DNA from: Phyllobates terribilis | Taxonomy: Eukaryota | Reading direction: 5' to 3' | Length of the DNA stretch: 64,000 nucleotides | NCBI RefSeq assembly: GCF_046119375.1 | Contig: NW_027362773.1 | Coordinates: 117,118,001-117,182,000 of the forward strand | Shown here: positions 503 through 50,812 of the stretch, piece after piece | Layout: each line of letters opens with the position of its first letter | Position numbering within the stretch: the first letter of the stretch is position 1 | Notes under the pieces: model-generated | The model's database searches: none | What the model was told of the DNA's origin: nothing | What the model saw: only the letters and a program-made list of their open reading frames with translations | Program-made: the position numbers and the translations under genes

Positions 503-1390
503 CTGTATAGAAAAAAGTTCGATGTGACGGCTCAGTTATCAGTTTAGTTTACAAACTTTTAGGATGAGCTGTGCATTTTACATTTTGCAATACAAAGGTT
601 GAAATCAAGTGCAAAATTCCAGTACAAATCTGCAACATATAAAGAATACATAAGATTATTACAGAAAACCCCATTAAAGGGGTTGTCCAGGACTTAAGAC
701 ATTGATGACCTAGATTTAGGAGTCCATCACCCAGCACCACCTTCGATCAGCTGTTGCAGGTCCTGTAGAGGCCATAAATAAACTGTGTATGGTGCCGGGT
801 TACCAGAGCACAAGATAGTGGCCATTTTTGGCTATTGCAGCCCTTAAAGGGAATAGTTCAGCAGGTTTTTGCTATGTAATCTTGACAGCAGCATCATCTA
901 CGTGCAGAGACCCTGATTCCAGCGATGTATCACTTTGATTATTGGGTGCAGCAGTTGTAATACAATCACAGTTTTCTCTGCTGCAGAGCTCAGAATGCTG
1001 AGCTTTGTATAACCCCGCCCACACCACTGGCAGCCAATCAGTGCTGGGGGCATGGTTGGACAAGGAGGCACAAGACACCTAGTCCTGTAGTGATAATCTC
1101 CTGCTAATAAAACACTGATTTTATTGAAATAACAGCAAAACACAGCCCAGTTAGTGACACATCGCTAGAATCAGAGCTCCATCCATCAGTTTGCTCTCAG
1201 ATTACATATGAAAACCTGCTGATTAGAATCCCTTTAACTGTTTTTAGTAGGGGGTCCGATTGTACCATGGTGCCTTCTGTCATTTACATACTTTAATGCG
1301 ACACATGGAGGCTTCAATCTTCAGCTGCTCGACTAGCTTCCTGGCCTGTCCAATGCTCAGTGTGCTATTCACAGGGGTGTCTCCTTTCAT
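374..1390 (-). CDS. GNG3: G protein gamma-3 subunit, join(complement(1292..1390),complement(374..502)), 75 aa
   Basis: Spliced translation [33 protein letters not shown]|[42 protein letters not shown] is near-identical to vertebrate GNG3. It ends in a CAAX box (CALL), has a GT-AG phase-0 intron, and lies divergent from BSCL2 as in other vertebrates. Confidence 0.97.
848..1233. mobile_element. T2/Kolobok-like MITE in the GNG3 coding intron
   Basis: Bounded by TTAA-AGGGA...TCCCT-TTAA with terminal inverted repeats; a partial related copy lies at ~41035-41205. Confidence 0.7.
1292..1390 (-). CDS. GNG3: GNG3 first coding exon (MKGDTP...CRIK)
   Basis: Acceptor tctctttctag|GAACC-ATG; donor AAA|gtatgt; 99 coding nt. 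Confidence 0.97.
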
Positions 1391-1929
1391 GGTTCCTAGA
1401 AAGAGAAAAATGTCCTATGAGTTGCAAAAAACAAGCCTCAAATTTCTGATTTATGATGAACTGCGAATTTACTCTGAATAGACCATAAACTATATATCCT
1501 ATTTAGATCTCATGCACATGTTGCAGAATAAAGAGGTTGTCCAGGAATGTGATATTGATGACCTATTCAATATCGGATTGGTGGGAGTCCGACAACCGGC
1601 ATCCCCACAGATCAACTTTTATTAGTTTTTTGACAGGCTGGATGTAAGTATTGGATGAAGCTGAACAGCACCGCTCCGTCCAATGTGTAGTGGCTAATGC
1701 TGAGAGCCACAAAATAGCTCCTCTTCTGATCTGCAGCGCTCAGAAGTGGCCACTACACATTGGACGGAAATGCGTTCTTCAGCTCTGTCCAATGGCTAAA
1801 TCTGGCCACGGCCGCAGCTAATAACAGCTGATCCATTGAGGTGCTGGGTATCTGACCCCCATCGATTTGATATTGATGAACTATCCAATAATATATGTCT
1901 GGATGACTCCTTTAAATTAATATTCAAAC

Positions 1930-2140
1930 TGTCTCTTCCAAGAGGAACAGGACTTGAACTCTATAGCGCCACCTATTGGAAGCAGCAATCCTACAAGTCA
2001 TTATTGACCCTTTAATGAGTCTTGCAATATGACTTAGGATAAAAGTCAAGCCAGAATCTCAATTTGTAGATATGGTGTTTCAGGGTGTTGCCCCTCCTCA
2101 GTGCATAGTATGAGAACTGATTTGGCTAGGTGAGAGGGTT
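1930..2140 (-). mobile_element. Fragment of hammerhead-bearing retrozyme/Penelope-like repeat (family Y)
   Basis: Aligns by eye with 21945-22507 and 29160-29650; contains a hammerhead motif at 2064-2106. Confidence 0.75.
2064..2106 (-). ncRNA. Type I hammerhead ribozyme motif, degenerate (family Y copy C)
   Basis: Minus strand reads ATGCA CTGAGGA GGGG CAACA CCCT GAAA CACCATA TC TACAA. The core is present but stems I and III carry mismatches. Confidence 0.65.
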
Positions 2141-4840: not shown

Positions 4841-6948
4841 CACTATGGTGAATTATAAACAGTTACAGAAATTGAATTACAAAATTTGGTCCTCATTCAG
4901 TGACAACTCTTTTTTGCTTTTCTCTTGTACGCCTGCATCGGATCATCTCTTACAAATGTCCAACAGTAATCTGTAGCATTGATGGATTCCATTTTCCTTG
5001 GTATCTTTTCTCCATAACCGCAATATATTGGTGAAACCTCTCACCGTGCTCGTCGGTCACTTCTCCGCAGTTTGGTGGAGAGGAAGTCTACATGAGAATG
5101 TAAGAAATGAATCTTTAAGGACATATAGCCAAGATCCTTATGTTTTGAGAAGATTTTCCACCAATTTTTCATAGTTATCTGCTCTTGAGTTTCCGCAAAA
5201 AATTAGTTACCACTATTGTGAATGCTACCCATGCAGACTTTTCCTTGCCCTACAACAAATGGAGAAACTCATCATCTTGAAGAAGCTTATGAATCTGAGG
5301 TCCAATAAAGACTCCTTCCTTTTATCTTTGCTTCACTCAACCTTGGAAATTTATTGAGATACTTGAATACTTTTGCATTTTTATCCATTGCCTTTAGAAA
5401 GTTCTTCATGAGTCCCAACTTCATATGCAATGGTGGTAACAAAATCTCATGGGTTAACAAGTCCTGGATACAGGACATTTTTAATACCCGGCTGAAGTGA
5501 GTGTCGGAGAGGCCAGTCTTTTTTATTGTAGTGATGTTCTCCTGCACGACTATCTCCTCTCACAGAAAGCAGTAGGACTTTGTGTATCCACTCTGGAAAC
5601 CAAATAAGAAGGCAACCACCTTTAAGTCACCACAGAGGGGCCACAAATGTTGGTCATAGTTCAGGCACCGGTTTCATGTTTTCATGGGTTTCTTTCATGT
5701 GGATGGCATAACCAACTGGAATTGAAGGTAGAGCATTGCCATTATGCAGCGAGACTTGTTTTGGACGTATTGTTGAAGATCCTCCATTCCTCTGGATTTT
5801 GACTTATCTTCAGAGCTTCCATTAAACTGTTGATGTTGTTGCATGCCACAAGATCACCTTGCCTGAAGAATTATTGGACAAGATCTTAATCATATGTTGC
5901 AGAACAAAGAAATCCTAATATCGCCCGCTAGAAGATTCCACTTCTTTAGCCTGGACCATAAGAGCTCAGCCTTACTCTTGGGCAGATCTAAATCTCTAAC
6001 AAGATCCTTCAGTTCACTTTGTGTTATAAGGTGTGGTTCAGTTGAGGTTGATGACGGAAAGTCTGGGTCGTGAATGGAAGTTGCTTCATGACACCAAGCG
6101 CCCTCTTCTTCCTCACTTGACTCGACTGAAAATGTTTCTGGTGCTTTTGGAACCGGCAGTTCTTCTGTATGTGGTACTGGGCGTATTGCAGATGGGATGT
6201 TGGGATAATGTAACGTCCACTTCTTCTTCCTTGAAACTCCTTTCCTAATGGGGGGCACCATGCAGAAATAACAATTGGTAGTGTGATCGGTTGGTTCTGT
6301 CCAAATCATTGGGACTGCAAAAGGCATAGACTGCCTCTTCCCATGCAACCACTGGGTAAGATGTGATGCACATGTATTGCAGCATATGCGTGGAGCCCAA
6401 CTCTTGTCCTGATCTCCTATTCTGCAGCCAAAATACAGGTTGTAGGCTTTCCTTATCATGGTAGTCAAGTTTCGCTTTTGTGACGCAAAAGTGACTTCTC
6501 CGCATATGTAGCAAAAACTATCCGCTTTGTTAATGCAAGAATGAGACATCTGAAAAAATATAGATACATGTCAATATGCTAAGAAATCCTAAAACTATAT
6601 ACCTTACACAGAGCGCATTTATAAAAGTAGGTGATGTAACTGTAATTAGGATTGCGTCATCGGAGCTGAGTTGGCGTTTTTTGATTGGTCACCCTAAGAT
6701 GATAGAATACTGAAGGTGCAATAGTCTAAATAGATGATGTAATAGACTAGCTACTAACAATGATGAAATAATAAAAACTCAATTTTTCTATAAGCCTGCA
6801 TGAAAGGTGCCATAAGTAATTACAACTTCATCTGGAGCTTGATATTAGAACCAATCAGCAAATTTAAACATCATATTCGTTTTCAGCACCGCAAAATTTG
6901 TTGAGTTCAACTGTTTCAGCTCTGAACCAATTTGGCTGTAGAACAGTG
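4841..6948 (-). mobile_element. Chapaev3-like (CMC) DNA transposon, frameshifted transposase
   Basis: CAC...GTG termini with a 3-bp TAA duplication (4838-4840, 6949-6951). ORF 5890..6549 has a Cys-rich N-terminus (CYICG...GDQDKSWAPRICCNTC...CYFC); ORF 5287..5547 has LPPLHMKLGLMKNF; downstream remnants read MSLKIHFLHSHVD and KRYQGKWNPSML. The family assignment rests on recalled motifs. Confidence 0.8.
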
Positions 6949-8924: not shown

Positions 8925-10060
8925 CCACTCAGTATGGTCACCCACCTCAGTAGGATACCCCACACAGTATCATGGTCCCCACAGCCCCTACACAGTATGA
9001 TGGCCCCTCTTTATGATGCTCCCACAGCCCCCCATTCAGTATGATGGATCCCAATGCCTGCCTTCCACACAGTATGGTGGCCCCAATGCCAGCTCCCCCA
9101 CTCACATATGATGGCCCCCAATCACGTATGATGGCCCCCAATGCCAGCCCCCCACTCAGAATGATGGCCCCAATGCCAGCCCCCCACTCAGTATGATGGC
9201 CCCAATGGCAGCCCCACACTCAGTACGATGGCCCCAATGCCAGCCCCACACTCAGTATGATGGCCCCAATGCCAGTCCCACACTCAGTATGATGGCCCCA
9301 ATGCCAGCCCCACACTCAGTATGATGGCCCCATTGCCAGCCACCCACTCAGTACGATGGCCCCAATGCCAGCCCCACACTCAATACGATGGCCCCAGTGC
9401 CAGCCCCACACTCAGTACGATGGCCCCAGTGCCAGCCCCACACTCAGTACGATGGCCCCAGTGCCAGCCCCACACTCAGTATGATGGCCCCAATGCCAGC
9501 CCCCCACTCAGTACGATGGCCTCAATGCCAGCCCCCCACTCAGTACGATGGCCCCAATGCCAACTCCCCACTCAGTACGATGGCCCCAATGCCAACTCCC
9601 CACTCAGTACGATGGCCCCAATGCCAACTCCCCACTCAGTACGATGGCCCCAATGCCAGCTCCCCACTCAGTACGATGGCCCCAATGCCAGCCCCCCACT
9701 CAGTACGATGGCCCCAATGCCAACTCCCCACTCAGTACGATGGCCCCAATGCCAGCCCCACACTCAGTACAATGGCCCCAATGCCAGCCCCACACTCAGT
9801 ACAATGGCCCCAATGCCAGCCCCACACTCAGTACAATGGCCCCAATGCCAACTCCCCACTCAGTATGATGGCCCCAATGCCAGCCCCACACTCAATACGA
9901 TGGCCCTAATGCCAGCCCCACACTCAGTACAATGGCCCCAATGCCAACTCCCCACTCAGTATGATGGCCCCAATGCCAGCCCCACACTCAATACGATGGC
10001 CCTAATGCGAAACTCCCTCCCCCCCACTCAGTATGTGGGTCCCCACAGTCACCCACTCAG
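8925..10060. repeat. 32-bp minisatellite (ATGATGGCCCCAATGCCAGCCCCACACTCAGT)n, ~30 copies with degenerate edges
   Basis: Unit read directly; the 32-aa periodicity of ORF 9321..10124 equals three units. Confidence 0.95.
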
Positions 10061-12884: not shown

Positions 12885-14127
<1,243 letters not shown>

Positions 14128-14348
14128 TAAAAATTGATAGTTTTTAATGACTATAGATCTCTTCTTTACTCTTGATCTAGATCATTTCAACAGAGTATGT
14201 GATTGCCATATACTAAACTAGTTGTATCATTAAGCAGAATTGTGAGATACTTGCTAAGAATTTTATAGGTCATTCACATGTCCGATTTTTATGTATCAGT
14301 GCTATCTGTGTTTTTTAAGGATAGCACTTGTGCCTGTGATAGTCTATA

Positions 14349-19066: not shown

Positions 19067-21995
19067 GTATGTAACCTAGTCATTGTACGGACAGGAAGGA
19101 ACCGATGTGTAGAGATGTATGTGACTGAGTCTGAACAGCTGCCGGCACAGAGTAATGTCATCCTCATGGAGGGGTCTGTTCTCCAGGGTTAAACAGTCCC
19201 CCATCAAAAAGGGTTAAAATCCGCATGTTAGCCATGACCATTTTTCAAATTCTTGTGACCTACCCTTAGGCTTGTTCACACACTGCGTTTTTGTTATGGA
19301 AAAAAGTGTTTTACAGATGCAGCAAAGTGAATCAGATTTCTAAAATCTGCACTTGCTCATTGTTTTTTTTTTTTTCATTGCAAATTTGAACCTTCAATTA
19401 TTTCAGCGTTTTTCACCCATTGTAATGAGTGGAGGGGAAAAATGCAATTTAAAAAGCATAAAAAAATACTTATTTTACAGTTTTTCTTGCCAATGTTCTG
19501 TTTTTTTGCTGCAGAAAAATCTTCAGATCCTCAATGTGTGCACATAACTTAAAGCTGCTTTCATAAGATGGTTCTTCGGGTCAGTATTTGGGGGCCGAAA
19601 GCAGAAATGGAATCGAGAGAGGGAAAAGGAATAATGGAGAGATTTGACTGTTCCATCTTTTGGAAACATTAGTTTTGGTTTATAAAATACTGATGCAAAA
19701 ATACTGCACAAAAGTGGATTCAAGCACAACATAATTTTATACAATATATAAATCCGGCATAAAATCTGCACTTAAAAAAAAAAAAAAACAATAATTCAGG
19801 TTTAGGCTATGTTCACACATAACGTTTTTTGCTGTGTTTTTTTTTTTTTTTATGCAGATTTTCAGCTGCATTTTACAGTACCAGCAAAGTCTATGAGACT
19901 GCGTTTTTGCAAAATGCTGCATGTCACTTCTTTCAGCTTTTTGTTTTTCACCCATTGAAAGCAATGAGTAAGTGGAAAAATACAGCAAAAAAAACGCAGG
20001 TATCAGGTTTTGGTGCCAAAACCTGTGGCAGTGAAGTTATTTTTTTTATGCACTAAACTTTATCAGCATGCATAAGAGACACATTTACACTGACAAAAAC
20101 ACATCAAAACCTGCTTTTTTGAGGTTGCTTTTTTTAATGCCAAGAGAGCAGGTTTTGCCTGCAGAAATGCAATGTGATCATAGCCTTAGATGCAGAATTT
20201 TTTTTTCCTTCTTTTGCAATGGGTGCAATCTTTGCAGTAGATCTGTTCATAGTGTAAAATGCTGAATGTGCGTCCACTCAAAATAATATCCTGACAATAA
20301 TCTCTCATGTGTGTAAGTGCTGCCATTGATCTCAACCACCCATAGCGTGCAGTTACTGCATCTCTCTGCTGCTTATCGGTTCACACTTGGACCAATGTTA
20401 TCCAATGGGGCAGTGCAGATGAACAATTTTTTTCACTGACCAATTTGGCGTGTGAAAAACAATCGCACCATTTTCCTCCCGAGTCTTGGATGAGACTCGC
20501 CCGTTCAAATCTACAGGTGCGAGAAAAAAATTGTATTCCATATGGAGACACAGTATAGCATATGATTGCAATTCATAGAAAGCTATAAATGATAGTTGCT
20601 GCCGTAAAAAATGAATAAAAATCTGATTTTATGTGGATGACGAGAAGAAAAATTGTCACACTTTTCTGGATGAACCTAGCTGTAGACTGAGATAAACCTG
20701 TATACTGAGCCGGGTGGGGAGACAGCTGCTGCCCGTATGCCCATTGCCAGTGTGTACCCATTGGACTGCGCTCTCTGTGAGGCATGATCATACCCTGCCA
20801 GTTCTACATAAGTATAGTAGAGGATTTGCACATTAATTCAACTCATTATGAAGATTAAGGGCCCGACTTATAATTTGTGTTGTTTTTTTTCACTTTTCTT
20901 TTTGATGATTGTATGCCAAATTCTTCAAAATGGCGCACACAATTCATGGATTTTACGCAAAGCCTAAAATTGTATATTTTTTTCTGCCTTTAACTTTTTT
21001 TTGTTGCTACTTTTTAGTGCAAAGAGTCACACATTTTGCAAAATGCCTCAAATAATGCAATTGGTGCACATAAAATCACTCCAGGGAGGGGACTAGAGTA
21101 AAGTTGTGACAAATTTTGCAACTTTTTTTTTTTTTAAAGTTGCATTTCATGAATTTGTGTCAAACATCTGTAAAAGCCGCAGTGACGTAAATATGAGAAA
21201 ACCTAACTAAACCACAAAAGACGACTGAAAAAAAAAGCCCAAATCGTTCTGGAAATTTGTCGCAAATCACAAAGTCGGTGATTTAGAGGTATTCACGCCA
21301 AAAAATGCAATGATGAATCTAGGCCTAATTCTACACATAAAGTGTAAAATGATTTTTAGCTGTGAACCTGGGGCCATATGGGTAATATTTCCCCTTTTCG
21401 AGAGTGACAAGCCAAGTGAGTGAGGAGACTTTTAAGCCATGCATTCTCCTCTGGGAAATTAAACATGCAAATTGCTTCTTCAGAGAGGAAGACTACTAGA
21501 ACTCTAGCGCATGCGCAGAACATAGCACATGCGCAGTAAAGCTGGCAATCACACAGCCTCACTGCGCACACGCGGAAAACCGAGCGTCATCGCGCATGCG
21601 CAATGAGGCTGCGTGATTACCAGCTTCGCTATGCATGCGCAGTGAACATAGTGTGTGCACAGTGAAGCTGGTAATCACACAGCCTCACTGCGCAGGTGCG
21701 GGACCAGTGGCCTGACACAGACAAATGCGCATGCGCCCCACAATAATAGCGCTTGCCAGGAGCAATATTCAAGTACGCGGGCGACGCCAGCAGTGACTGA
21801 ATGCTGCAGGTAGGACAAAGTGTATAAAAAAATCATTATAGCTGCACCAATTTTAATGAAAAAAGCTTGTTAGTGATGCACACTGCATCACTAACAATGC
21901 TATGGGGGCAGTGTAGAGGAAAGCTAGGACGTGACAGGTTCCCTTTAACGAGTCGTGCAATATGACTTGGGATAAAAGCCAAACCAGAATCTCAA

Positions 21996-22040
21996 TTTGC
22001 AGACATGGTGTTTCAGGGTGTTGCCCCTCATCAGGTCAAA
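21996..22040 (-). ncRNA. Type I hammerhead ribozyme motif (family Y copy B)
   Basis: TTTGAC CTGATGA GGGG CAACA CCCT GAAA CACCATG TC TGCAAA. The core and GUC site are intact; stem I has two mismatches next to the core. Confidence 0.75.
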
Positions 22041-22325
22041 GTATGAGATCTGAATTGGGTTCTAAAGGGAAATGTTTCTCCTTGTGGAGAGCAAGAAGCC
22101 AAGCCTGGCATGTCAGAGTGAGGAGACTTATAAGCCATGCATGCTCTAGTCCTCTTTCTCTCTGAAGAGACAATTTGCATATTTAATTTTGCAGAGAAGC
22201 ATGCATAGTGTATATAAGTTTCCTCACTGACTTGCCAGGCTTGGCTTGTCACTCTCCGCAAGGAGAAACATTACCCCTTAGACCCCAGTCCAGAGCCTCT
22301 TACCTAGCCAAAGCAGATCTCATAC

Positions 22326-22370
22326 TTTGCACTGACGAGAGGCAATAACCCAAAACACCGTGTCTGCAAA
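22326..22370 (+). ncRNA. Type I hammerhead ribozyme motif with G12A core mutation (family Y copy A)
   Basis: TTTGCA CTGACGA GAGG CAATA ACCC AAAA CACCGTG TC TGCAAA. Stem I is a perfect 6 bp; GAAA is changed to AAAA at 22352. Confidence 0.75.
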
Positions 22371-22993
22371 CTTAGATTCAGGTTTGGGTTTTATCCTACA
22401 TCATATTGCAAGGCTAGTTAAAAAGTTGATATTGACTTTTAGGATTACTGCTTCCAATAGATGGTGCTAGAGTTCTAGTCCTTTTCTCTGAAGAGACAAT
22501 TTGTATAGTTGTGAACCTAAACATTCATCAGTTGTGTTGCTTACTGGTGTCTTTCATTTTTTTTCTCCTCTGCACAGATTGGTGCTGCCGCCCTCCGACC
22601 AACACGACCTCCTTTCTTGCTCAGTCTTCCCCTTGTACGTTCTGTCCTCTTTCACCCAGTTCTGTTCTCCACGGATAACTCTGATTTCCACACTGAGCAG
22701 TAATGTGACCCACACAAAGGCAAACCTTTCCCACCCCGATGTCTCTGCCCTCCTCTATGCACCCATTTTGGTAAATAGCACACAGCACCCGTCTTACAAG
22801 CATCGTCTGTCTGCTGGACATATACACCGCCTGCTGCTTACACTGTGCAGATATATACAGCAGAGCCTGTCACGCTGCTGATACAAACACCTACTAATGG
22901 TCACATCTTTGGTTTGGACCCGCACACCATTTAACTCTTTATTAACCTCTGCCGTTCTCAGCCTTGTGTCGTGAGAACGCCATATACATCACT

Positions 22994-23323: not shown

Positions 23324-26300
23324 GTTATAAGGGGTAGGTATAGTATTACATATAGAAAATAATGTATACAAAGCAATATTTCCATCAGAGACTTTGTGCA
23401 AAGCCCCTCCTTGCTGATCAAGCGCGTGATGCCACATTATAAGTAACTGAGGACCATTACGTTCCAGTAATTCCCATCATATGACCACAAAGCAAAGCAC
23501 AAAATACATGAGAAAAGAGCCTACATTGTTTTTGCAGAGTTTGTGCTTTTCTTTATATTGATACTTGCAGAATATTTCTGAAATATTAGTTGTTGTTTTT
23601 TTAACTTTCTTGTTTCAGCTCCACATGTAACCCATCACCTGGAATCCTGTGCTCCTTTCCCACCGCTAATGTCTCACTTTTGAGGAATAACCGTGACCGG
23701 GTGAGCTTGTAAATAGGGTAACCTTCAAGACAGACCGAGGTCGGGGTCCACACAGCCATACAAAAAATTGANNNNNNNNNNNNNNNNNNNNNNNNNNNNN
23801 NNNNNNNNNNNNNNNNNNNNNNNNNNNNNNNNNNNNNNNNNNNNNNNNNNNNNNNNNNNNNNNNNNNNNNNNNNNNNNNNNNNNNNNNNNNNNNNNNNNN
23901 NNNNNNNNATTGCACTGTCTAAAATATGTATTTTTTTGCACACTAAGTATAAATAATTTTTTTTTTAGTCGTTAAAAAAATTTAAAATTGAGCTTTGTGT
24001 ATAAAATATATATATTTTTTTTTGTACACAAAAAAAATTCTACTTTGTATATAGAAAATATACATATTTTATACACAAAGCATTATTTTTTAACAATTTA
24101 AATCTAAAATATATATAATATAATTTTTTTTTTAATCTTAGAAATATATAGTGTGTGCGCTTCTTAAGGACTTAATCGTACTATCCCGAAGAATCGCGTT
24201 GCCTGGTTGTTCTAACTGCGCTTTTTTTTTCCCCCATCATGGGGAATTTTTTTTTTTCTTCCCCATCTTACAGTTTATTACTTGGGAAAACAAATGTTAT
24301 TCAAAAATACAACTCGCCTCGTAAAGAAAAAAGCCATCGTATGGCCATGTTGATAATGTATTTTTTTTCCCCCATTTTACTAACTATATGAAAATAAAAT
24401 CCCCAAATTTTGCAATTTTTGCACTGGCCACTAAGCCGAATACTAGACTTTGTATTTCCTGTTGAGTGCAGAAAACTTTTCAGCAGTCTCATTATCATCA
24501 CAGACAAGATTACAGTGACAGATATTGTACCACAGGATCCATAATGTTAAAGCTCTTTCTCCTCTTCTTTACTCAGAAAGGAGCAGTCCTATAGTCAATA
24601 ATTCAGTTTGTGTATTGCCGTTTATGGTCTCCCTGCTGTAAAGTATATCTCTAATTGCTGTTAACAGACGCTCATGTAAAAAAGGGCTGACTCCATAATC
24701 ATGTACTTAAAATTAAAAAAAATCTTAAAGAATATGCATCTCTGTTGGACTTTAATTGTTAAAATATACATTTAAAAGGGTGTTCCTATGCCAATATGTA
24801 GTAGGTGTAATAATATTAGCAAATCCCTTCAATTAGAAATGTAGTATAGTTTTTCTGATTCACTATGTCTCTTTGCTCATGTGCAGGCATTGCAGGACCT
24901 TGGGTATCCATGGTTACGACCACTAGCAACCAGCTGTCACTAGATCAGTGGTCGCAACCATGCATACCTAAGGTCCTGCAATGCCTGCACATGAGGAAAG
25001 AGACATAGCGAATCAGAAGAACTATACTACATTTCTAATTGAAGGTATTTGCTAATATTATTATTATACCTACTACATATTGGGATAGGATCTTGGAGAT
25101 GGGAATACCCGTTTAAGTAGTTAGGAAAAATAGAATATATATTTGTGAGAACTATGCAATCCGAATAGCTGCTTGTATCCTATATAGGAAAGTAATTTCT
25201 TCCTCTATGGATAGTAAGCAGATGTATTCCTCGCTCTTCTCTCCGCAGGTGCTGATGTATGGCCAGCCATATCGTATAGCTCTGGAGCTTCGGGTGCCAG
25301 AGTCCGCAATCAACCAAGACCTTGGGATGTTCATGGTTTCAATGTCCTGTTACACGCGAGGCGGGAAGGAGATTTCTTACACGGCTCGATCTGTGAGTTA
25401 CTGATGATATTCTCTTTCTTTCTCTTCACTTATTTTGTCTTGTTCTCCTTCTCACCATGTTGTCTTTCACCAGGCGATGCTGCACTACAAATCCCACCTC
25501 CTGAAAACATTAGAGACTCTGGCCTTATTCCCTCTGTTCATCTTGGGACTTTCTGAGCAGAAGCAAATTCTTGAAGTTGAGCTGCACTCTGAATATCGAG
25601 AAGATTCGGTTAGTATTAAAACCTTTTTTTTTTTGTCCATTGTAATCTTTATTTTAAAGTCTGTTGTTTTTTATTCTCACTATTTTGTAGTAATCTTCAT
25701 CTATATTAAAAAGTTTTCCCATAGAGGCATTTTTGTTCACCTATTAAAGGGAACCTGTCACCAGTTTTATACCTGATAAACCATGCCCATTCTACAACCC
25801 CTCTATGCCTTCATACACGTCCCCATGCATACCTCCGAAAAAGTGTTTCATTCATGTCCCATGCTGCATGCAAATTAAGCAGTCCGGTCCGAGGGGCTAA
25901 TTCTGATGACACTCAGTGCCGCCCCAGTCCCTTCAAACGCCGCCTCTTCTATCCTGACTGAAGTGTCCTACGTCATTCACATGGTGCTCGAAGTCTCGCG
26001 CCTGCACAATTGAATAAGAAACCGGCCCAGGCGCTCTTGGTTTGGCCCAGGCGCTCTTGGTTTGGCCCAGGCCTTTTCCCCCGTTCATCCGCTGTTCCAT
26101 GCAAACTTTGGTTGTGTATTGAGGAGGATCAGGGGTGACTTAAGACACCTGTTCTAGTGTTTAGCTCCCATCCTGTAGATAGGTGACAAATGTGGGAAGA
26201 CCCCTTTAACCCATCTGACTTTTACTCCTTCTCTCTGCATTATTATTCTACACTCCTATTTTCTTTTATCATTCCTATATATATTTTTTCCATTGTTTGT

Positions 26301-27213: not shown

Positions 27214-30200
27214 TTGTTTAGTTTCGTATTTATCACAGCAGAGTATGATTTTTTTTTTTTGCATTTTTTGTTTTATATGCGTTATAAATAACAAATTTTT
27301 TGCAATGTTGTTACATATTAGCATGTATCATCTCTTTTCTGTGCCCCTTATTTTTAGCCTTTCCAAGCTAACGTCTGTGATCTGTTTGCAGGTATATACT
27401 GTACAATTACCCAGTCGTGTCTGCCATCATTGGCATTGCCAGCAACTTTATCTTCTTGAGCGTCCTGGTGTTACTCAGCTATCTGCAGTTTGGAGCTGGA
27501 AGATTTCGTTTCAGGGTGAGCGAGGAAAGCGACGCACCAGGGATGCAGGTGATGGACGTTGCATGACTACATGAATGCTTTTTTTTTTGCTTTCTTTTCC
27601 TGTAGGCAGCCAACGTGGGCAGCACCGAAACGGGAAGGACTGAGACCCAAGAAGGAAGCGCTGCAGAGTCAGGTAAGGCCACGAGTTAGCACTGATTTAA
27701 CACAGCACCGCCTCATAGGTTCCCTTTGACTATCAGCTGATTCATGCTGCCCAATAATCAAGAGGGCAGCATGGTGGCTCAGTGGTTAGCACTGCAGCCT
27801 TGCAGCCCTGTGTTCAAATCCCACCAAGGACATCTGCAAGGCGTTTGTATGTTCTCCCCGTGTTTGCGTGGGTTTCCTCCGGGTTCTCCGGTTTCCTCCC
27901 ACACCCCAAAGACATACTGATAGGGAATCTAGATTGTGAGCCCCAATGGGGACAGTGATGATAATCAATGTAAAGCGCTGCGGAATTAATAGTGCTATGT
28001 AAGTGAGTAAAATAAGAGCCTGGAGCATTTCACGAAAAAATATAGTTATAGGATCCAATGTTCCAGGTTTTACGCCAGACCTATATTCCTTGTTAACCAT
28101 GCCCATGTTTGAAAAAGAACTAAAGTTTCAAACTTTGTACAGCATATAATTATTTTTCTCAAAACTGAGCCTCTCAAACACCACGGGGCACCGAACAGTG
28201 TGAGAAGCACAATTGTAAATTAATATTTGAGCACTAGATGGCAGGATCGCTCTATTTTCTTTTTGACTCCTAAAGTTCATTCTTCTGTGATATGGACTTT
28301 GATACCTGTCTAGGTCTAGAAATAAATCTTCCGGATTTTTGGTAGATTTTAGCTCCGTGACAGGAGTGCAAAGTTTGTATACAGCTCAGTAAAAAGTCCA
28401 GAAATGACTTTCTCCAGAGGGGGGGCCCTAATGGAAGATCTTGAGTTGCGGTACCCTGACGTATGTGTGCAAGGAGAAACCAAAATGATAGTCACATTTC
28501 TGGTGTAGGATCAAGTGAACCCTTTTGGACCTCTTAGCAAATTGTAAAAAAAACAAACATTTTCTTCAAAATTAAAAAATAAGTTGTTTTTTTTTTTTTT
28601 TTTTTCCCCACAACCACTTTTTAATGATTCATCTGAATCTCTTAATTCATTCTTTTACTCCTGGATGGCAAGCAAAGATGCATCTCTGCCTTTCTTACTG
28701 CACCATAGCTAGGCTGCTTGCTATTTGGTACAATATTGGGGTTATCCACCTATATAATATTGATCTATTAGAGATGAGCAAATCTTTTAAAATTCTAATT
28801 TGCCTGCTTATCTGGATTTTTAAAAAAAAAAAAAAAAAATTTGATTCACTGCAAATCATCAAAAGTATTGCTAATCCTCCAATTGCACAGGAAAGATGTG
28901 CTTGAGGTCTACTAGTCCTTCATCCAGCCCCTCTCAAGCTCCTTAATGCAGAAACACAGCCTCTGTCATGGCAGAAGTGACCTCAACATATGCAGTATCA
29001 GTCAAAAGTTTGGACACACCTGTTCATTGATTACCGCAATCTTCTGTAAAATGGTAGCTACCATTCCAAGCAATTTACACAAATTGAATGGAAAATTGTT
29101 CCAAACTTCCTAAAATTTCGCAATTGATTCTTTCATCTCAAATATCAGTGTTCTAAGGATGCAGATTGTCTCTTCAGAGAGGACTTGAACTCTGTAGCGC
29201 CACCTGTTGGAAACAGCAATCCCACAAGTCAATATCGACTCTTCAATGAGCCTTGCAATATGACTTAGAATAGGAGCCAAATCAGAATCTCAATTTGTAG
29301 ACACTGTGTTTCGGGGTATTGCCTCTCATCAGTGCAAAAGTATGAGAACTGATTTGGCTAAGTGAGAGGCTGAGACTGGGATCTAAGACGTAACGTTTCT
29401 CCTTGTGGAGAGTAACATTCTGATTTGGCTTTTATCCTAAGAATCATTAAAGGGTTGATATTGACTTCTAGGATTGCTACTTCCTGTAGGTTGCGCTATA
29501 GAGTTCTAGTTCTCTTCCTCTCTAAATATGCAAATTGTCTCTTCTATCTCCCAGAGCAGCATGCAAGGCATTTAAGTCTCCTCTCACTGGCATGCCAGAC
29601 CTGGCATGTCACTCTCCACAAGGAGAAACCTAACCCCTTAGATCCTAGTATTCAAAGGATAAATCCTCAATATTAAATCGATCAGGGTCTTACACCCTTC
29701 ACCCCCCGCTGATCACCTGTCAATAGCTCCCCTGGCGGCTAGATCTAACTGTTGAACAGAGCCGAACTGTCAAACGTGACACTAAGCATTGGGTTTTTGT
29801 TTGTGCCCTTGAAATTCGAACCAATGGAGGACTGGTTGTTATCATTGACATAACCATTATTTAAAATTGCTCAGATTGTTACAGATAATTGGTACATCCA
29901 TGACCAGGTGAAATTCACCCCCCCCGCCTTCCCCCATACACATTACTACAGAGCCTCTATGGAGCTGAGAACCTGTGCAAGATGCGTGCAGTATCCATGA
30001 GAGCTTACAGGGGTATTCCCATCTCCAAGATCCTATCCCAATATGTAATAAGTGTATTAATAATATTAGCAAATACCTCCAATTAGAAATGTAGTATAGT
30101 TATGATTCGCTATATCACTTACCCCATCTGCAGGGCATTGTAGTAGCTTGGGTATCCATGGTTACGACCACTCATGCCTAAGCTACTGCAATGCCCTGCA

Positions 30201-32527
30201 CATGGGGTAAGTGACATAGTGAATCATAACTATACTACATTTCTAATTGGAGGTATTTGCTATTATTATTATTACACCTACTACACATTGGGATAGGATC
30301 TTGGAGATGGGAATACACATTTAAAGACCAGAAAGGGTCAAAACGGAGCCCTGAGTCACATCTCCAGCATGTTGGGAATGGACCGCAATATTTTATGTAG
30401 CAGGATTAGTATATTCTACCATCTTTTACCTTTTAAGGATATAATAGGTTATATTACATCTGGTTTGTTATGATTCTACATACGATCATAGCAGCTGAAT
30501 TCGACTGCCTCTGAAATTATGATCAGATTTCAGTAGTAACATTTGGCTTATGGTGTCCGACTTCTGATGGAGGAGCGTATGACCTGTCCATCAGCTTCAC
30601 ATGGCAAAGCTGTTTTTCTTTTTGGAGGATGCTGATGGGCTGGTCTGGTCACTCGGTCCTCCATCGGCTGCTATTTTATGGAAAAACGTGTTGGTCATTT
30701 TGAGGAAAGCTGCGCTAATGAGAAAGTGAAAAACTGTGCAAAAAATAAAAAAAATTAAAAGTACCGAAGATTAGAAAAAAAAAACCCACAACTTTATGTT
30801 CTATAATGGAGGCACGGAAGAGCTAAATCTGCTCCAGTGATGGTAATGATAGAGGGGTACTCTTAGGAGATGACCATTGATATAAATGGTTGGTTGTGCA
30901 GACCACGGGTCGGGTCCTTTTTTAGCATTTGGGATTGTGAACGATTAAGGCCCCTTTGTTGTCTTTATGTCCTAATATGACAAGGGGTCTTCACAAGACA
31001 GCCTTTTTATGGTATACTTGTCAGTAGGATACATTTAGTAGAATTGACTTTTTGATGGGCCTTCCGGTAACGTTATGTGAATAAGTACATGCAATAGTCG
31101 TGATTGTGACTCCTGACCAAACCCTAAATGTTTCTTCTTCAAAGAGCGTGGTAAGGATCCAGACACTGAGACTCTTGGCCAAGGTGAAGGCACTAGAGCA
31201 GACCCTTCCTATGATGCTGGTACGTAAGATCCTTACCATCCATAATAACCTGTGCACAGAATGGTGGCAGCCGTATATATCAATGTATTAACTAAGAAAA
31301 AATTCACTGCTGACTCCAGAAATATCAAAACACAAATTGCAATCCGGCGATGTGATCTTCTGGACCCACCGGGTTTCCATGACAGCTGGGGGCCTCAAGA
31401 AGGCTCCTGCCCAGGGCTGCCTTATTGGTATAGGAGTCTACTGTTATATCGGTGGTCAAGCGTCCGTCCCATAGTGGGACTGAAAGAAAATGCAAAAAGA
31501 AAAGTTCTTAAAATGTATGTATATAACACGCTCTCACACACTTGCAGATCAGTTGGGGTCCGGGCACCAAGACTCCCCACAGACTGCACAGAGCGGTTTA
31601 CGGGCTCCTATAAGTCTATGCTTCCATGCACTCCTTCTCACAAAGTGGTAAGGCCCGTAGACTTACTATTGAGCACGTACACTTCTCTGGGTGTGTGCTG
31701 CGTACAACAGCTGTGTACTTCAGAGTGATGTTTTGTGCAATCAGAGGGGATCTTGGGACCAGCAGCTACTTGCAGCGTCTATAATAAATATAAAATACAT
31801 GTTTAATGACAATTACACTTTGTGCAAAAAAAGAGAAAAGAACTGGCACCATTCAGAACTCTCACAAAATGGTAGGATATCTGCACCCACCTTGCTATTT
31901 TTCGGAAACTCCTGATGCCTCACCGCGTGTAACACGTTCATAGAGTTTCAAAGAGAGAAGAAGGCGGCACCCACTGTTATGTAAAAAACTTGTTTATTTT
32001 GGACCCATTGTGCACGAAACGGCCGTCGTCCGTCTTTTGTGCCTGCATCCATGTTTTTAGGATTGTTAGATAAACAGGTTTTTTACGCGATAGACTGCTG
32101 CCTTGTTCTCTCTTTGGAACTCTGACAATTACACTTTAACAATAAAAACAAAAAAAAACTTTAAAAAAATGTTTTTGTATCAAACGATCAAATCAATCTA
32201 AGATGCTTTAAGATATTTCCTATAGTGTCCTGACCCTATCCTATAGCGTATAGGGTTTTCTTACCTAGAGTCTTCCACAATTTCTGTCAACCTTCTTTTA
32301 CTGTAATTGGAAAACTATTAGTTGCTGATTGTTGTTGACCAGTCCGGTCTCTTCTAGGTGTGCAACCTCGGACTGTAGGAATGACAGAAGACGACAGTGA
32401 GGACCAAGAGGATTTCGACATAAGTTTACCGGGGGACATGGACATCTCTGGTGCTGTTGGAACTCAGAATGAGCCTCAGACTGGGCTGATGCTGCGGCAG
32501 AGGCTGACTCAATGCAGCGCCCACTGA
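22994..32527 (+). CDS. BSCL2: Seipin, join(22994..23205,23619..23700,25249..25392,25474..25608,26317..26414,27392..27515,27606..27672,31145..31219,32358..32527), 1107 nt, 368 aa
   Basis: All introns are GT-AG with consistent phases. The protein has TM1 ([28 protein letters not shown]), the luminal domain ([27 protein letters not shown]), TM2 and the C-terminal [11 protein letters not shown]. Confidence 0.96.
23619..23700 (+). CDS. BSCL2: BSCL2 coding exon 2 ([27 protein letters not shown])
   Basis: tttcag|C...CGG|gtgagc; 82 nt. Confidence 0.96.
23772..23908. other. Assembly gap (137 N)
   Basis: Run of N in a BSCL2 intron. Confidence 1.
24776..25112. mobile_element. Near-perfect palindromic T2/Kolobok-like MITE
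   Basis: TTAA flanks; ~160-bp arms are reverse complements; second copy at 30009-30320. Confidence 0.85.
25249..25392 (+). CDS. BSCL2: BSCL2 coding exon 3 (VLMYGQPY...YTARS)
   Basis: ccgcag|GTG...TCT|gtgagt; 144 nt. Confidence 0.97.
25474..25608 (+). CDS. BSCL2: BSCL2 coding exon 4 (AMLHYKS...YREDS)
   Basis: caccag|GCG...TCG|gttagt; 135 nt. Confidence 0.97.
26317..26414 (+). CDS. BSCL2: BSCL2 coding exon 5 (YVPTTGA...HFTGL)
   Basis: ttgcag|TAC...AG|gtgagg; 98 nt. Confidence 0.97.
27392..27515 (+). CDS. BSCL2: BSCL2 coding exon 6 (YILYNYP...GRFRFR; TM2)
   Basis: ttgcag|G...AGG|gtgagc; 124 nt. Confidence 0.95.
27606..27672 (+). CDS. BSCL2: BSCL2 coding exon 7 (AANVGST...SAAES)
   Basis: ctgtag|GCA...G|gtaagg; 67 nt after a 90-nt intron. 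Confidence 0.88.
27764..28015 (+). mobile_element. tRNA-derived SINE
   Basis: A box TGGCTCAGTGG, B box GTTCAAATCC, conserved TGTATGTTCTCCCCGTGTTTGCGTGGGTTT core, A-rich tail. Confidence 0.88.
29160..29650. mobile_element. Family Y locus with divergent arms (29160-29415 minus; 29416-29650 plus)
   Basis: Both arms align with 21945-22507; hammerhead at 29294-29338. Confidence 0.8.
29294..29338 (-). ncRNA. Type I hammerhead ribozyme motif, best-preserved family Y copy (D)
   Basis: TTTGCA CTGATGA GAGG CAATA CCCC GAAA CACAGTG TC TACAAA. All core nucleotides and GUC are intact; one A.C mismatch in each of stems I and II. Confidence 0.8.
30009..30320. mobile_element. Palindromic T2/Kolobok-like MITE, second copy
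   Basis: GGGGTATTCCCATCTCCAAGATCC...GGATCTTGGAGATGGGAATAC termini. Confidence 0.85.
31145..31219 (+). CDS. BSCL2: BSCL2 coding exon 8 ([24 protein letters not shown])
   Basis: ttcttcaaag|AG...G|gtacgt; 75 nt, phase 1-1, keeps the frame; poorly conserved region. Confidence 0.75.
31943..32122. mobile_element. Small inverted Penelope-like remnant with the 3' half of a hammerhead
   Basis: Arms GAGTTTCAAAGAGAGAAGAAGGCGGCA... and ...CTGCCTTGTTCTCTCTTTGGAACTC; GAAACGGCCGTC at 32016-32027. Confidence 0.55.
32358..32527 (+). CDS. BSCL2: BSCL2 last coding exon (VQPRT...[11 protein letters not shown])
   Basis: ttctag|GT; acidic tail; the LRQR motif matches human LRQRPTCSSS. Confidence 0.92.
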
Positions 32528-41217: not shown

Positions 41218-42615
41218 CAGTGAGAAATAAGTATTTGATCCCCTACAAACCATTATGAGTTCTGGTTGAGACCAGTTAGACGCTCCTAATCAACTCGTTA
41301 CCTGCATTAAAGACACCTGTCTTACATAGTCACCTGTATAAAAGACTCCTGTCCAGACTCAATTAATCAGTCAGACTCTAACCTCTACAACATGGGTAAG
41401 ACCAAAGTGCTTTCTAAGGATGTCAGGGACAAGATCATAGATCTGCACAAAGTTGGAATGGGCTACAAAACCATAAGTAAGACGCTGGGTGAGAAGGAGA
41501 CAACTGTTGGGGCAATAGTAAGAAATTGGAAGAAATACAAAATGACTGTCAATCAACATCTTTCTGGGGCAACATGCAAAATCTCACCTCGTGGGGTATC
41601 CTTGATCATGAAGAAGGTGAGAGATCGGCCTAAAACTAAACGGGGGGAACTTGTTAATGATCTCAAGGCAGCTGGGACCACAGTCACCAAGAAAACCATT
41701 GGTAACAGATTACACCTTAAAGGTTTAAAATCCTGCGGTGCCCACTAGGCCCCCCTGCTCAAGAAGGCACATGTGCAGGCCCGTCTGACGTTTGCCAATG
41801 AACACCTGGATGATTCTGTGAGTTATTGGGAGAAGGTGCTGTGGTCAGAGGAGACAAAAATTGAGCTCTTTGGCAGAAGGATGAGTACAACCCTAAGAAC
41901 ATCATCCCAACCCTGAAGCATGATGGGGGAAGCATTATACTTTGGGGGTGCTTTTCTGCAAAGGGGACATGATGACTGCACCTTACTGAAGGGAAGATGG
42001 ATGGGGTCATGTATCGCTAGATTTTGGCCAACAACCTCCTTCCCTCAGTAAGAGCATTGAAGATGGGTCGTGGCTGGGTCTTCCAGCAAGACAATGACAC
42101 AAAACATACAACCAAGGCAACAAAGGAGTGGCTCAAAAAGAAGCACATTAAGGTCATGGAGTGGCCTAGCCAGTCTCCAGACCTTAATCCCATAGAAAAC
42201 TTATGGAGGGAGGTGAAGCTCCGAGTTTCCAAGCGACAGCCTCAAAATCTGAATGATTTAGAGATGATCTGCAAGGAGGAGTGGACCAAAATTCCTCCTG
42301 ACATGTGCGCAACCCTCATCATCAACTACAAAAAACGTCTGACTGCTGTGCTTGCCAACAAGGGTTTTGCCACCAAGTATTAAGTGTAGTTTGCCAGAGG
42401 GATCAAATACTTAATTCTCACTGGAAAATGCTAATAAATGTATCTAATTTATACAATGTGATTTTCTTGATTTTTTTTTTTTGGGGGGGGGGGGGGGATA
42501 TTCTATCTCTCAATGTTAAAATTAACCTTCCCTTAAAATTATAGACTGTTCATGTCTTTGTCAGTGGGCAAACTTACAAAAACAGCAAGGGATCAAATAC
42601 TTATTTCCCCCACTG
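41218..42615 (+). mobile_element. Degenerate Tc1 element in the LRRN4CL intron; outer left TIR lost
   Basis: ORFs 41392..41748 ([16 protein letters not shown]) and 42024..42383 (QQDNDTKH...[11 protein letters not shown]...GFATKY); right end CACTG-TA. Confidence 0.92.
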
Positions 42616-43407
42616 TACATATGTTGTTTCCTTAAACAATAGAAAGGTAAAATCTAAAATAAGCTCCATTAGCCAGTGTGAGAATTGAAAGACTTTTAAT
42701 TTGACATGTTAAAAAAAAAAGAACATTGCAAAATTTATATTAAAAAAATACTCAAAAACTTGATTTAAACAATAAGTAATTTTCTAATGACACATTCCCT
42801 TTAAATGTGCATGCATAAAAGCCATGTAATACATTCTTTTTACAATGAGACACTCAGCTCTGCTACATCTGTATCTGCTTTTCTTGCAAGAAAATTTTTG
42901 TACATTTTTAAGTCGACAAAACAAGAAATGCCTGTGGTTTGTCCTGACATGTTACTGCACAATAAGAGCAAATAGGAAATTAGTGAAATAAGGTGACATA
43001 TCTGCAATACTGATAGGAACAGTGATCCTGTAACTGCAGGGTTGCCAACTTGATTTTTTATTTTTTTCTGGATAACGTGCCCAAGAGTAACGGACAGACA
43101 TTTTCTACTGACAAGTTACAGTCATTCTCCAGCTTAAAAAAAATCCATCAGCAGTTAATAAAATTTACAAGACCGAATCACATTTTATATGGGTTGTCCA
43201 TGTGGGACCTGATTTTTTTTTTTATCGCCCTCCTCACTGCACTTTTGCTCCGTTGCACTAGAATAGAAATGCGAGGCATAAAAATAATACCAATAATAAT
43301 AACTTTTTCTATTTTTTTTTCCTATTTCTTGCCACTCTCACTTTACCGATTCCCTTTATTATTTTCTTTTTTTTTTCCTCTGAATTTTTTTATTTTTCTG
43401 CCTCCAG

Positions 43408-44259
43408 ATGGCACCATCACCTTTCCTATTGCTTCTTCTGCCTTTCTTAGTTTTTACAACAGGCTCAGCCCAAGAAGACGGAAACTCCAACAACTCCACC
43501 CTTGCTCCAATCTCAGGCATAAACCAAACATCTGTCACCCTTCGTCCCACCCAGAAGGATCGAAGCACAAGGGACAGGATTGAGTTCATCGTAGGAGGAT
43601 CAGAGGAAGAATACGATTACGGAGATGAAGAGACAACAGTTGCTCCTACCTCACCTCTTACTAAACTTTCCTGCCAGTACGACGGGTGTAAGCATCTGGA
43701 GCCCACATGCGAGGAGATTCAATGGCATGCAGGTGGGAAATGTCTTTGCCCAGGAATTGATGGTCCAGAAATGATTCCCGATTCTCCCCCTGTTAGAGAA
43801 GTCCTGCTTGGTGAGACCCAAATGACCATAAACTGGTGTTCCCCTTCATCCACGGTACGTGGGTACAGAGTGCTGTATGGAAAGCAAGGGGGCTCACTGG
43901 AAAAGGGACCGGACCTCAACAGCTCTTTCCGATCATATACCATTGACCATCTTGATCCTGCTTATCCGTATACAGTGTGTGTGGTGGCATTTAATGAGGC
44001 AGGAGAAAGCCAAGCCCAGGAGGAAGACGACAGACCAGCCGGAAGTAGACCAGGTCCATGCAGGACTGTCCAAACCACCATGCAATCACTATATATAGGA
44101 ATTGGGATAGGGCTGGCAGCGCTCGCGGGATTGTCGATTATTTTGGGCTTCTGTCTTTGGACAAGAAAGAGAAACAGGACCAAGAGGGAAGCCAACCTGG
44201 AGGAAAGTGGAGTACCAAACTACACCTATCGGGCAGGGAGCGTAGGCAGTTACGAGTAG
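43408..44259 (+). CDS. LRRN4CL: LRRN4 C-terminal-like protein: signal peptide, Cys-rich motif, FN3 domain, single TM, short tail; 283 aa
   Basis: Intact ORF with CQYDGCKHLEPTC...CLCPG, FN3 (INWCSP...GYRVLY...YTVCVVAFNEAG) and TM (LYIGIGIGLAALAGLSIILGFCLW). It lies downstream of BSCL2 on the same strand, as in human. Confidence 0.9.
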   Translation: MAPSPFLLLLLPFLVFTTGSAQEDGNSNNSTLAPISGINQTSVTLRPTQKDRSTRDRIEFIVGGSEEEYDYGDEETTVAPTSPLTKLSCQYDGCKHLEPTCEEIQWHAGGKCLCPGIDGPEMIPDSPPVREVLLGETQMTINWCSPSSTVRGYRVLYGKQGGSLEKGPDLNSSFRSYTIDHLDPAYPYTVCVVAFNEAGESQAQEEDDRPAGSRPGPCRTVQTTMQSLYIGIGIGLAALAGLSIILGFCLWTRKRNRTKREANLEESGVPNYTYRAGSVGSYE

Positions 44260-50270: not shown

Positions 50271-50395
50271 AGTGCATTACTTATAGTTTTCTTTGAACAA
50301 TTGTACCTGCTGATTCCATGTCTCTCTGTAACTCTTGAGAGGTGGTCCTTGGCTCTTGGACCACTCTTCTGATAATTCATTTAACTCCTCTGTCT

Positions 50396-50812
50396 CAGGG
50401 ACAGTGTCAAAGGTCACCACTTTGACTCCTTCAGAGCAGGAATGAATGTGTCACATGGATTTACTGTATGTCATTCTACATCAACTAAGGAATGTGACCA
50501 TCAGACTTGTGGGGTCATCACAACACTGCACCAAACAATAAAACTTTCACAGTCCTTATCTATGAACTGCTAAAATATTTACAGCCAGAAATGTTTATCT
50601 CTCCCATAGTAATAGCTCTGCTTTTCATCACCTGTCTCATCTATTGCATTATTTCTGTGCCATATTGTGTATAAATATGTGACTCTTCAGATTTGGGGTT
50701 ATACTAGCCTGATGAAGAGGCCTGAGTAGTCTCGAAAGCTTGCAAAATGTTACCATCTTTCAGTTAGCCATTAAAAGGTATCAACCACTGAGGACTCTCA
50801 AATCGAAATATT
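50396..50812 (+). mobile_element. 3' end of a Penelope-like retroelement with a hammerhead
   Basis: FDSFRAGMNVSHGF (50421-50462) resembles the C-terminus of a PLE GIY-YIG endonuclease; ~15-bp flanking duplication (50381-50395 vs 50813-50827, 13/15 match). Confidence 0.7.
50705..50745 (+). ncRNA. Minimal type I hammerhead ribozyme motif
   Basis: TAGC CTGATGA A GAGGC CTGAGTA GTCTC GAAA GCT T GCAA: intact core, 5-bp stem II, palindromic AGCT stem III. Confidence 0.7.

What the first reader, a model, noticed from the sequence alone, without database searches (positions are those of the whole stretch)
21945..22507. Retrozyme-like system: ~326-nt hammerhead-bearing monomers, in tandem and as divergent inverted arms, inside seipin intron 1
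Seen: a non-coding unit with a 326-bp period. Each unit carries a type I hammerhead; the four-copy consensus is TTTGCA CUGAYGA GGGG-CAAYA-CCCC GAAA CACCGUG UC^UGCAAA. Stem III has a 1-nt loop and so cannot fold alone, but two copies can pair (ACAC-C-GUGU, 8 bp around one mismatch). Established: newt satellite 2, non-LTR retrozymes and Penelope terminal repeats use such dimer-dependent hammerheads, and tandem transcripts are processed to monomeric or circular RNAs. Inference: this is a non-autonomous family, probably mobilised by Penelope reverse transcriptase, that may produce ~326-nt circular RNAs. I cannot tell whether it is already catalogued.
Basis: partly seen in the sequence, partly recalled or inferred. 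Interest (0 to 1): 0.85.

Follow-up and report, generated by a model that had tools for sequence, protein, structure and literature searches.

The report
Decayed hammerhead retrozyme insertions in frog
These are old, broken copies of a short jumping RNA element that carries a self-cutting ribozyme, a kind already known from amphibians, and their ends show the marks left by the Penelope retrotransposon machinery thought to move such elements.

Summary
The feature is real. A non-coding unit of about 330 nt (326–331) with one canonical type I hammerhead occurs at three loci in a dendrobatid frog's seipin region. All four hammerheads carry structure-breaking mutations, none is compensatory, and no locus has two hammerheads on one strand, so these copies cannot make monomers or circles.

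21370–22505 is a single insertion bounded by a 13-bp target-site duplication (TSD), and 29161–29646 is a second with a 14-bp one. Both are head-to-head arms with variable 5' ends and the same two outer ends, about 107 nt apart in the unit. That matches the insertion pattern described for Penelope-like elements (PLEs): inverted copy, TSD and tail.

The class is known: non-LTR retrozymes were reported in 7 of 7 amphibian genomes sampled (mean 316 bp) and proposed to be non-autonomous PLE derivatives. This is a new member of that kind. Its added value is structural evidence, from only two loci, for PLE mobilisation from a multimeric or circular RNA. Whether Dfam or Repbase list the family could not be checked.

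The parts
21357..21369 (.). Left copy of 13-bp target-site duplication, locus 1
   Evidence: 12/13 identical to 22506-22518; 1 of 6000 random end pairs score as high
21370..21508 (-). Fragment C: outer part of the inverted arm (unit positions ~314 to 134-136; u1 = 22153)
21509..21944 (.). Later insertion that interrupts the inverted arm. Palindromic inside, with a TTAA-flanked terminal repeat at the right end (Kolobok/T2-MITE-like; name recalled). The left end and ~43 nt of the unit are missing.
   Evidence: the 18-nt end is identical at 25744; no other match in the window
21945..22146 (-). Fragment B: inner part of the inverted arm (u46-270, 23-nt deletion)
21985..22050 (-). Hammerhead B (C3 22034, C17 22002); the two proximal stem I pairs are broken
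22147..22505 (+). Arm A: 1.1 units with ~30-nt terminal redundancy; 3' end at u27-29
22316..22381 (+). Hammerhead A (C3 22332, C17 22364); core G12 mutated to A, 2 of 4 stem II pairs broken
22173..22180 (+). Octamer motif in the unit, next to the first shared end; possible snRNA-type promoter element (lead only)
   Evidence: 3 of 5 exact octamers in the window lie in this family; not more conserved than average, 38/45
22506..22518 (.). Right copy of the 13-bp TSD, locus 1; 59 nt upstream of the inferred seipin splice acceptor
29147..29160 (.). TSD copy, locus 2 (14 bp)
   Evidence: 12/14 identical to 29647-29660; 19 of 6000 random pairs score as high
29161..29416 (-). Arm E (u95 to u26-28) with hammerhead E (C3 29332; one stem I and one stem II pair broken); in a later seipin intron
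29417..29646 (+). Arm F (u~223 to u134-137), inverted relative to E; has a 12-nt deletion and a ~22-nt internal inversion; no hammerhead core
29647..29660 (.). Second TSD copy, locus 2
1914..2137 (-). Fragment D (u144 to ~u36) with hammerhead D (stems I and III broken). No TSD found; its 3' end abuts a TTAA-flanked palindromic repeat.

Best explanation
These are dead genomic copies of a non-autonomous ~330-nt hammerhead element (a non-LTR retrozyme) inserted by the endonuclease/reverse transcriptase of a Penelope-like element. SHOWN: a cyclic non-coding unit; a type I hammerhead at consensus level; two insertions with 13-14-bp TSDs; head-to-head arms with variable 5' ends; and two shared outer ends about 141 and 250 nt downstream of the cleavage site. 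INFERRED: source arrays elsewhere in the genome were transcribed into multimers, cleaved by dimer-assisted hammerheads and perhaps ligated into circles. A PLE protein nicked both DNA strands 13-14 nt apart. Each nick primed reverse transcription at one of two preferred internal start sites on an uncleaved multimer or a circle. The two 5'-truncated cDNAs were joined head-to-head and repair produced the TSD. The copies then decayed (7.5-14% from the majority), and a DNA-transposon fragment interrupted locus 1.
For: The cyclic order is closed independently by arm A, by B+C and by E+F. The longest stop-free stretch is 70 aa. TSDs: 1/6000 and 19/6000 under the null. Both complete loci share both ends within about 2 nt; rough chance 4.5e-4. 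Each of the four outer junctions has a 2-3-nt overlap between TSD and element (read by eye). Four of five arms (A, B+C, D, E) run through the cleavage site and two exceed one unit, which a cleaved linear monomer cannot template. Literature on PLE insertions: an adjacent inverted 5'-truncated copy and a tail (PMC8557442), 8-10-bp TSDs and mostly head-to-head inversion (PMC3846280), nicking and extension of both strands from two internal start sites (PMC11167929). A separate PLE-type minimal hammerhead at 50709 suggests PLEs occur in this genome.
Against: Only two complete loci. The spacing between ends (~107 nt) is about three times the 30-40-bp PLE tail. The TSDs are longer than the rotifer PLE examples. 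No partner PLE or shared terminal repeat was found in the window. There is no compensatory change among four hammerheads, the Rfam score is below threshold, and no full dimer or array is present here. Locus D has no TSD. The TSD anchors were set within 3 nt of the BLAST ends after the repeats had been seen by eye. The unmasked nulls were weaker (65/4000 and 88/4000) until tandem arrays and the gap were excluded.
Confidence: 0.78

Rival explanations
1. The fragments are only 5'-truncated ends (pLTR plus tail) of an autonomous Penelope-like element, with no independent short family.
For: The insertion anatomy is that of PLEs. 24 of 57 Xenopus retrozyme families matched Repbase TEs, 21 of those 22 TEs being PLEs.
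Against: Sequence past the second end runs straight back into the hammerhead in arms A, B and E. The unit closes on itself with no ORF. The hammerhead is canonical, not the minimal PLE type.
Confidence: 0.07
2. A satellite-type repeat was dispersed at DNA level (extrachromosomal circles or break repair), and the inversions came from fold-back repair.
For: Greater-than-unit permuted copies are also what DNA circles give. F has a micro-inversion and a deletion. The inner junctions have 1-2-nt microhomology (read by eye).
Against: It does not explain identical strand-specific outer ends at two loci or 13-14-bp TSDs.
Confidence: 0.06
3. The same retrozyme was mobilised by another LINE (L1, L2 or CR1 type) through twin priming rather than by a PLE.
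For: Twin priming gives 5'-5' inversions and 7-20-bp TSDs (recalled). The literature leaves LINEs open as partners.
Against: There is no poly(A) or simple-repeat 3' tail, and the inverted arm's outer end is fixed rather than variable.
Confidence: 0.06
4. The locus itself is functional: it cleaves or regulates seipin pre-mRNA, or produces circular RNA.
For: It lies 59 nt from the inferred acceptor and forms a ~480-nt hairpin in the sense strand. Domesticated intronic hammerheads exist in amniotes.
Against: The sense hammerhead has lost G12 and two stem II pairs, is sequestered in the hairpin, and has no same-strand partner. Its divergence matches that of the other copies.
Confidence: 0.03

Closest known systems
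Metazoan non-LTR retrozymes (Cervera and de la Pena 2020, PMC7229834; Li, Clavereau and Pollet, bioRxiv 10.64898/2026.07.22.740005)
   Same: Non-coding repeat of 150-450 bp with one type I hammerhead per unit, TSD longer than 4 bp, dispersed monomer-type copies. Amphibian mean 316 bp; about 42-44% of Xenopus copies are intronic.
   Different: No two-hammerhead tandem in this window. In the parts read and by term search, neither paper describes head-to-head insertions or fixed two-site ends. Dendrobatids are not named in the preprint's main text; its supplements were closed.
Newt satellite 2 and axolotl Rtz_331 / Rtz_353
   Same: Unit of about 330 nt, weak palindromic helix III, dimer-favoured cleavage, amphibian host.
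   Different: Helix III here allows 3 bp plus a triloop, against 1 or 2 bp plus a tetraloop in axolotl. The copies here are dispersed and decayed. Sequence homology was not testable.
Endonuclease-positive Penelope-like elements (Penelope/Poseidon, Neptune) and their pLTR/tail
   Same: Hammerhead in the repeat, partial tandem, adjacent inverted 5'-truncated copy, TSD, two alternative ends downstream of the cleavage site.
   Different: No ORF, canonical rather than minimal hammerhead, end spacing ~107 nt rather than 30-40.
Xenopus tropicalis canonical repeat hammerhead (Fig. S1 of PMC4209133) and Rfam RF00163
   Same: 6-bp helix I with an internal bulge, 4-bp helix II, short helix III. The text-extracted figure suggests a near-identical helix I with one compensatory pair (tentative; garbled layout).
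   Different: Helix II and helix III sequences appear to differ. The RF00163 score is 20.2, below its threshold of 34.

Membership tests
Non-LTR retrozyme | Type I hammerhead in each unit | tested here: met
   Core, 6-bp stem I, 4-bp stem II and short stem III at consensus level; RF00163 weak hit; each individual copy is mutated
Non-LTR retrozyme | Short (150-450 bp) non-coding unit | tested here: met
   326-331 nt; longest stop-free stretch 70 aa
Non-LTR retrozyme | Head-to-tail tandem with at least two complete hammerheads (Li et al.'s 'active' criterion) | tested here: inconclusive
   0 of 3 loci in the window meet it (at most 1.1-1.3 units); the cyclic order implies a multimeric or circular source; the genome was not available
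Non-LTR retrozyme | TSD, when present, longer than 4 bp | tested here: met
   13 and 14 bp at 2 of 3 loci
Non-LTR retrozyme | No LTR, PBS or PPT | not tested
   No LTR-type layout seen in the fragment map; PBS and PPT were not searched
Non-LTR retrozyme | Self-cleavage and accumulation of linear and circular monomer RNA | not testable with these tools
   Majority unit folds as a circle at -90.2 kcal/mol, z -2.3, which is only suggestive
PLE-type insertion | Adjacent inverted 5'-truncated copy, head-to-head | tested here: met
   2 of 3 loci
PLE-type insertion | Optional 30-40-bp tail at one end (two RT start sites) | tested here: inconclusive
   Two fixed ends at both complete loci, but about 107 nt apart
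Autonomous PLE | RT plus GIY-YIG ORF between pLTRs | tested here: not met
   The unit closes on itself without an ORF. 17 ORFs or exon pieces were scanned in Pfam (most from the 65 listed) with no RT hit
Autonomous PLE | Minimal hammerhead (long helix II, no helix III) | tested here: not met
   Canonical architecture, compared
PLE derivative | Homology to the pLTR of a co-resident autonomous PLE | not testable with these tools
   No repeat library or eukaryotic genome available; no similarity to the 50.7-kb fragment
Newt satellite 2 | Helix III of one base pair plus palindromic tetraloop | tested here: not met
   3 bp plus triloop, or 4 bp plus 1 nt, compared
Newt satellite 2 | Internal snRNA-type promoter | tested here: inconclusive
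   Octamer present; a proximal sequence element could not be verified; promoter type from a passage in PMC2220036, octamer detail recalled

The most novel reading that the evidence does not exclude
This frog family preserves a mechanistic record of retrozyme retrotransposition. A PLE protein primes both nicked strands at two fixed internal sites about 107 nt apart on a circular RNA and copies through the ligated cleavage junction for more than one turn. The unit may also carry its own octamer-containing snRNA-type promoter, contrary to the statement that metazoan retrozymes lack promoters. If this holds genome-wide, it would be direct structural evidence for PLE mobilisation of retrozymes and would name the start sites for an in vitro test.
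Probability: 0.3. Interest if true: 0.62.

Novelty: new member of a known kind. Interest (0 to 1): 0.37.

Why it matters
Which enzyme moves animal retrozymes, and whether the template is a circle, is stated as open in both main papers; their evidence is co-occurrence and pLTR homology. Insertions with TSDs, head-to-head arms and two fixed ends give a direct signature that can be counted across a genome. The family is also abundant here (1,411 of 64,000 bp at three loci), and such inverted insertions put long dsRNA hairpins into introns. The locus itself is almost certainly inert as a ribozyme.

Tried and rejected
- Whole-window Rfam scan: no hammerhead; only sub-threshold miRNA and sRNA hits to hairpins and a TA repeat.
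- Core-pattern count: not above chance.
- Covariation: none; four decayed copies have little power either way.
- More copies with a custom model: none; the 59051-59118 hit (E 0.052) lacks the core.
- Subfamily structure: 5 sites group A+E against B+D and 3 group A+B against D+E, out of 117 columns; inconclusive.
- Partner PLE: none among 17 ORFs or exon pieces scanned, which gave Tc1-type transposases, seipin and an FN3 protein. The 50.7-kb fragment has no similarity to the family.
- TSD for locus D: not found.
- MITE reading of the whole element: rejected because the two ends are not inverted repeats of each other and the inner junctions differ between loci.
- Dimer formation between the two arms: rejected because they lie on opposite strands.
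- Promoter idea: the octamer is not preferentially conserved. A hairpin box at u~100-117 ties for the most conserved window (85/90) but was picked after the fact.
- Literature: motif search found 0 papers; the satellite 2 promoter search found 0; the 1994 paper is not held.
- Not checked: Dfam, Repbase and genome-wide copy number (no tool). The bacterial genome scan was not used as irrelevant.
- Supplements not seen, which may list this family: PMC7229834 and the 2026 preprint.

Full report
CONTEXT. The first seipin coding exon (ATG 22994) matches Pfam Seipin and is 100% identical to the named Phyllobates terribilis seipin, with other dendrobatids next. Coding exons run to 32524. A donor at 19067, after CCAAT/GC-box-like motifs, and an acceptor at 22577 suggest the finding lies in a first, 5'-UTR intron. 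That is inferred from motifs only.

THE UNIT. Self-comparison gives six fragments at three loci. I use unit coordinates with u1 = 22153. A (+, 22147-22505) covers 1.1 units. B (-, 22146-21945) is followed by an unrelated insert and then C (-, 21508-21370), together about 1.3 units. D is 2137-1914 (-). E (-, 29416-29161) sits back to back with F (+, 29417-29646). The period is 326 or 329 nt in A depending on the anchor, and 331 by majority. The cyclic order is closed independently by A, by B+C and by E+F. Copies are 75-88% identical pairwise and 7.5-14% from the majority for the main fragments, and the longest stop-free stretch is 70 aa.

THE HAMMERHEAD. Four copies exist (they match the model by construction, and no fifth was found). 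The consensus is a canonical type I motif: 6-bp proximal stem I, a bulge, a long distal helix, 4-bp stem II and a palindromic stem III. Every copy is damaged. A lost G12 and two stem II pairs; B lost the two proximal stem I pairs; D has breaks in stems I and III; E has one break each in stems I and II. Several changes are CpG decay, and 0 of 19 pairs covary. Rfam found nothing in the whole window and RF00163 at 20.2 bits, below its threshold of 34, locally. Monomeric stem III (3 bp plus triloop) is 0.4 kcal/mol worse than open, while the two-copy helix gives -7.4: dimer-favoured, but not sterically impossible alone. At this locus the two hammerheads are on opposite strands, and a sense transcript folds into one hairpin (-275 kcal/mol, z -24.7), so no dimer or monomer can arise here.

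INSERTION ANATOMY. Locus 1 is bounded by 21357-21369 and 22506-22518 (12/13 identical), and locus 2 by 29147-29160 and 29647-29660 (12/14). Random end pairs reached these scores in 1 and 19 of 6000 trials after tandem arrays and the gap were masked; unmasked, 65 and 88 of 4000. The anchors were placed within 3 nt of the BLAST ends after I had seen the repeats. In both loci one arm ends at u27-28 and the inverted arm at u134-136, about 141 and 250 nt past the cleavage site, while the inner 5' ends vary (rough chance 4.5e-4). Each outer junction has a 2-3-nt overlap between TSD and element, read by eye. D has no detectable TSD, and its end is obscured by another repeat.

MECHANISM. PLE insertions are described as partial tandems with an adjacent inverted 5'-truncated copy and an optional 30-40-bp tail (PMC8557442, passages), with 8-10-bp TSDs and mostly head-to-head inversion (PMC3846280, passages). 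The anole PLE protein nicks and extends both strands from two internal RNA start sites that define the tail, and uses unprocessed RNA (PMC11167929, parts 1-2 of 4). I infer the same process acting in trans on this ORF-less unit. Four of five arms cross the cleavage site and two exceed one unit, so the template was an uncleaved multimer or a circle; these data cannot tell which. Against the model: only two loci, end spacing of ~107 nt, no partner PLE found, and no array seen. A separate minimal-type hammerhead at 50709-50737 looks like a PLE terminal fragment (my reading against the min-HHR description) and is unrelated in sequence.

WHAT IS KNOWN. Non-LTR retrozymes are 150-450-bp tandem repeats with type I hammerheads, expressed as circles in coral, mussel and axolotl (331 and 353 nt, dimer-dependent), with PLEs proposed as partners (PMC7229834, parts 2-4 of 6; supplement unreadable). 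The 2026 preprint (parts 1-3 of 5; supplements closed) finds them in 7 of 7 amphibians, mean 316 bp, often as dispersed monomers and about 42-44% intronic in Xenopus. It argues that they are non-autonomous PLE derivatives; only 1 of 9 tested dimers cleaved. Also seen: PMC4209133 (parts 1-2 of 4, and part 1 of 3 of supplement file 2); passages of PMC3088659 (its 11 readable supplements searched), PMC6155905, PMC7761336, PMC2220036, PMC12822217 and PMC11722881. The 1994 newt promoter paper was seen only as a citation. Ten searches and term searches in the two main papers showed no description of this family or of inverted, two-end insertions for retrozymes. The library is partial, and Dfam and Repbase were not available.

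VERDICT. A real, decayed, new member of a known kind. It works like a PLE-mobilised retrozyme (0.78). Membership is met for unit, ribozyme and TSD, and unresolved for tandem arrays and RNA products. Interest 0.37; the most novel reading (0.3 probable) would deserve about 0.6.

Noticed in passing
window 50700-50810 (+): A second, unrelated hammerhead-like motif with a long helix II and no helix III, as in PLE terminal repeats; single copy in the window.
   Followed up: partly
window 21509-21944: Palindromic insert with one TTAA-flanked terminal repeat whose 18-nt end recurs at 25744; 11 ends of similar type were counted in the window.
   Followed up: partly
window 29518-29539: A ~22-nt in-place micro-inversion inside arm F, containing the octamer.
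   Followed up: partly
window 22253-22270 (+) and homologues: Small hairpin with an ACAA loop about 20 nt before the second shared end; ties for the most conserved window of the unit (85/90). Possible protein-binding or priming element.
   Followed up: partly
window 1292-1390 (-): First coding exon of a G-protein gamma subunit, divergent from seipin; fragment D lies just upstream, probably intronic.
   Followed up: partly
window 43384-44259 (+): Single-exon FN3 membrane protein ORF; resembles LRRN4CL, a seipin neighbour in mammals (recalled).
   Followed up: partly
window 47931-50274 and 9114-10008: Minisatellites: 33 bp x 71 with open frames of 734-790 codons, and 32 bp x 28.
   Followed up: no
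window 13154-14130, 41311-42383, 53699-56152: Three Tc1/mariner-type transposase remnants; the last has ~300-nt terminal inverted repeats.
   Followed up: partly
window 5890-6570 (-): 226-aa Cys/His-rich ORF with no Pfam match; looks transposon-derived.
   Followed up: partly
window 24808-25063 and 30005-30324: Related near-perfect palindromes with 117- and 158-nt arms in seipin introns, MITE-like.
   Followed up: no
window 23772-23908: Assembly gap of 137 N in a seipin intron.
   Followed up: no
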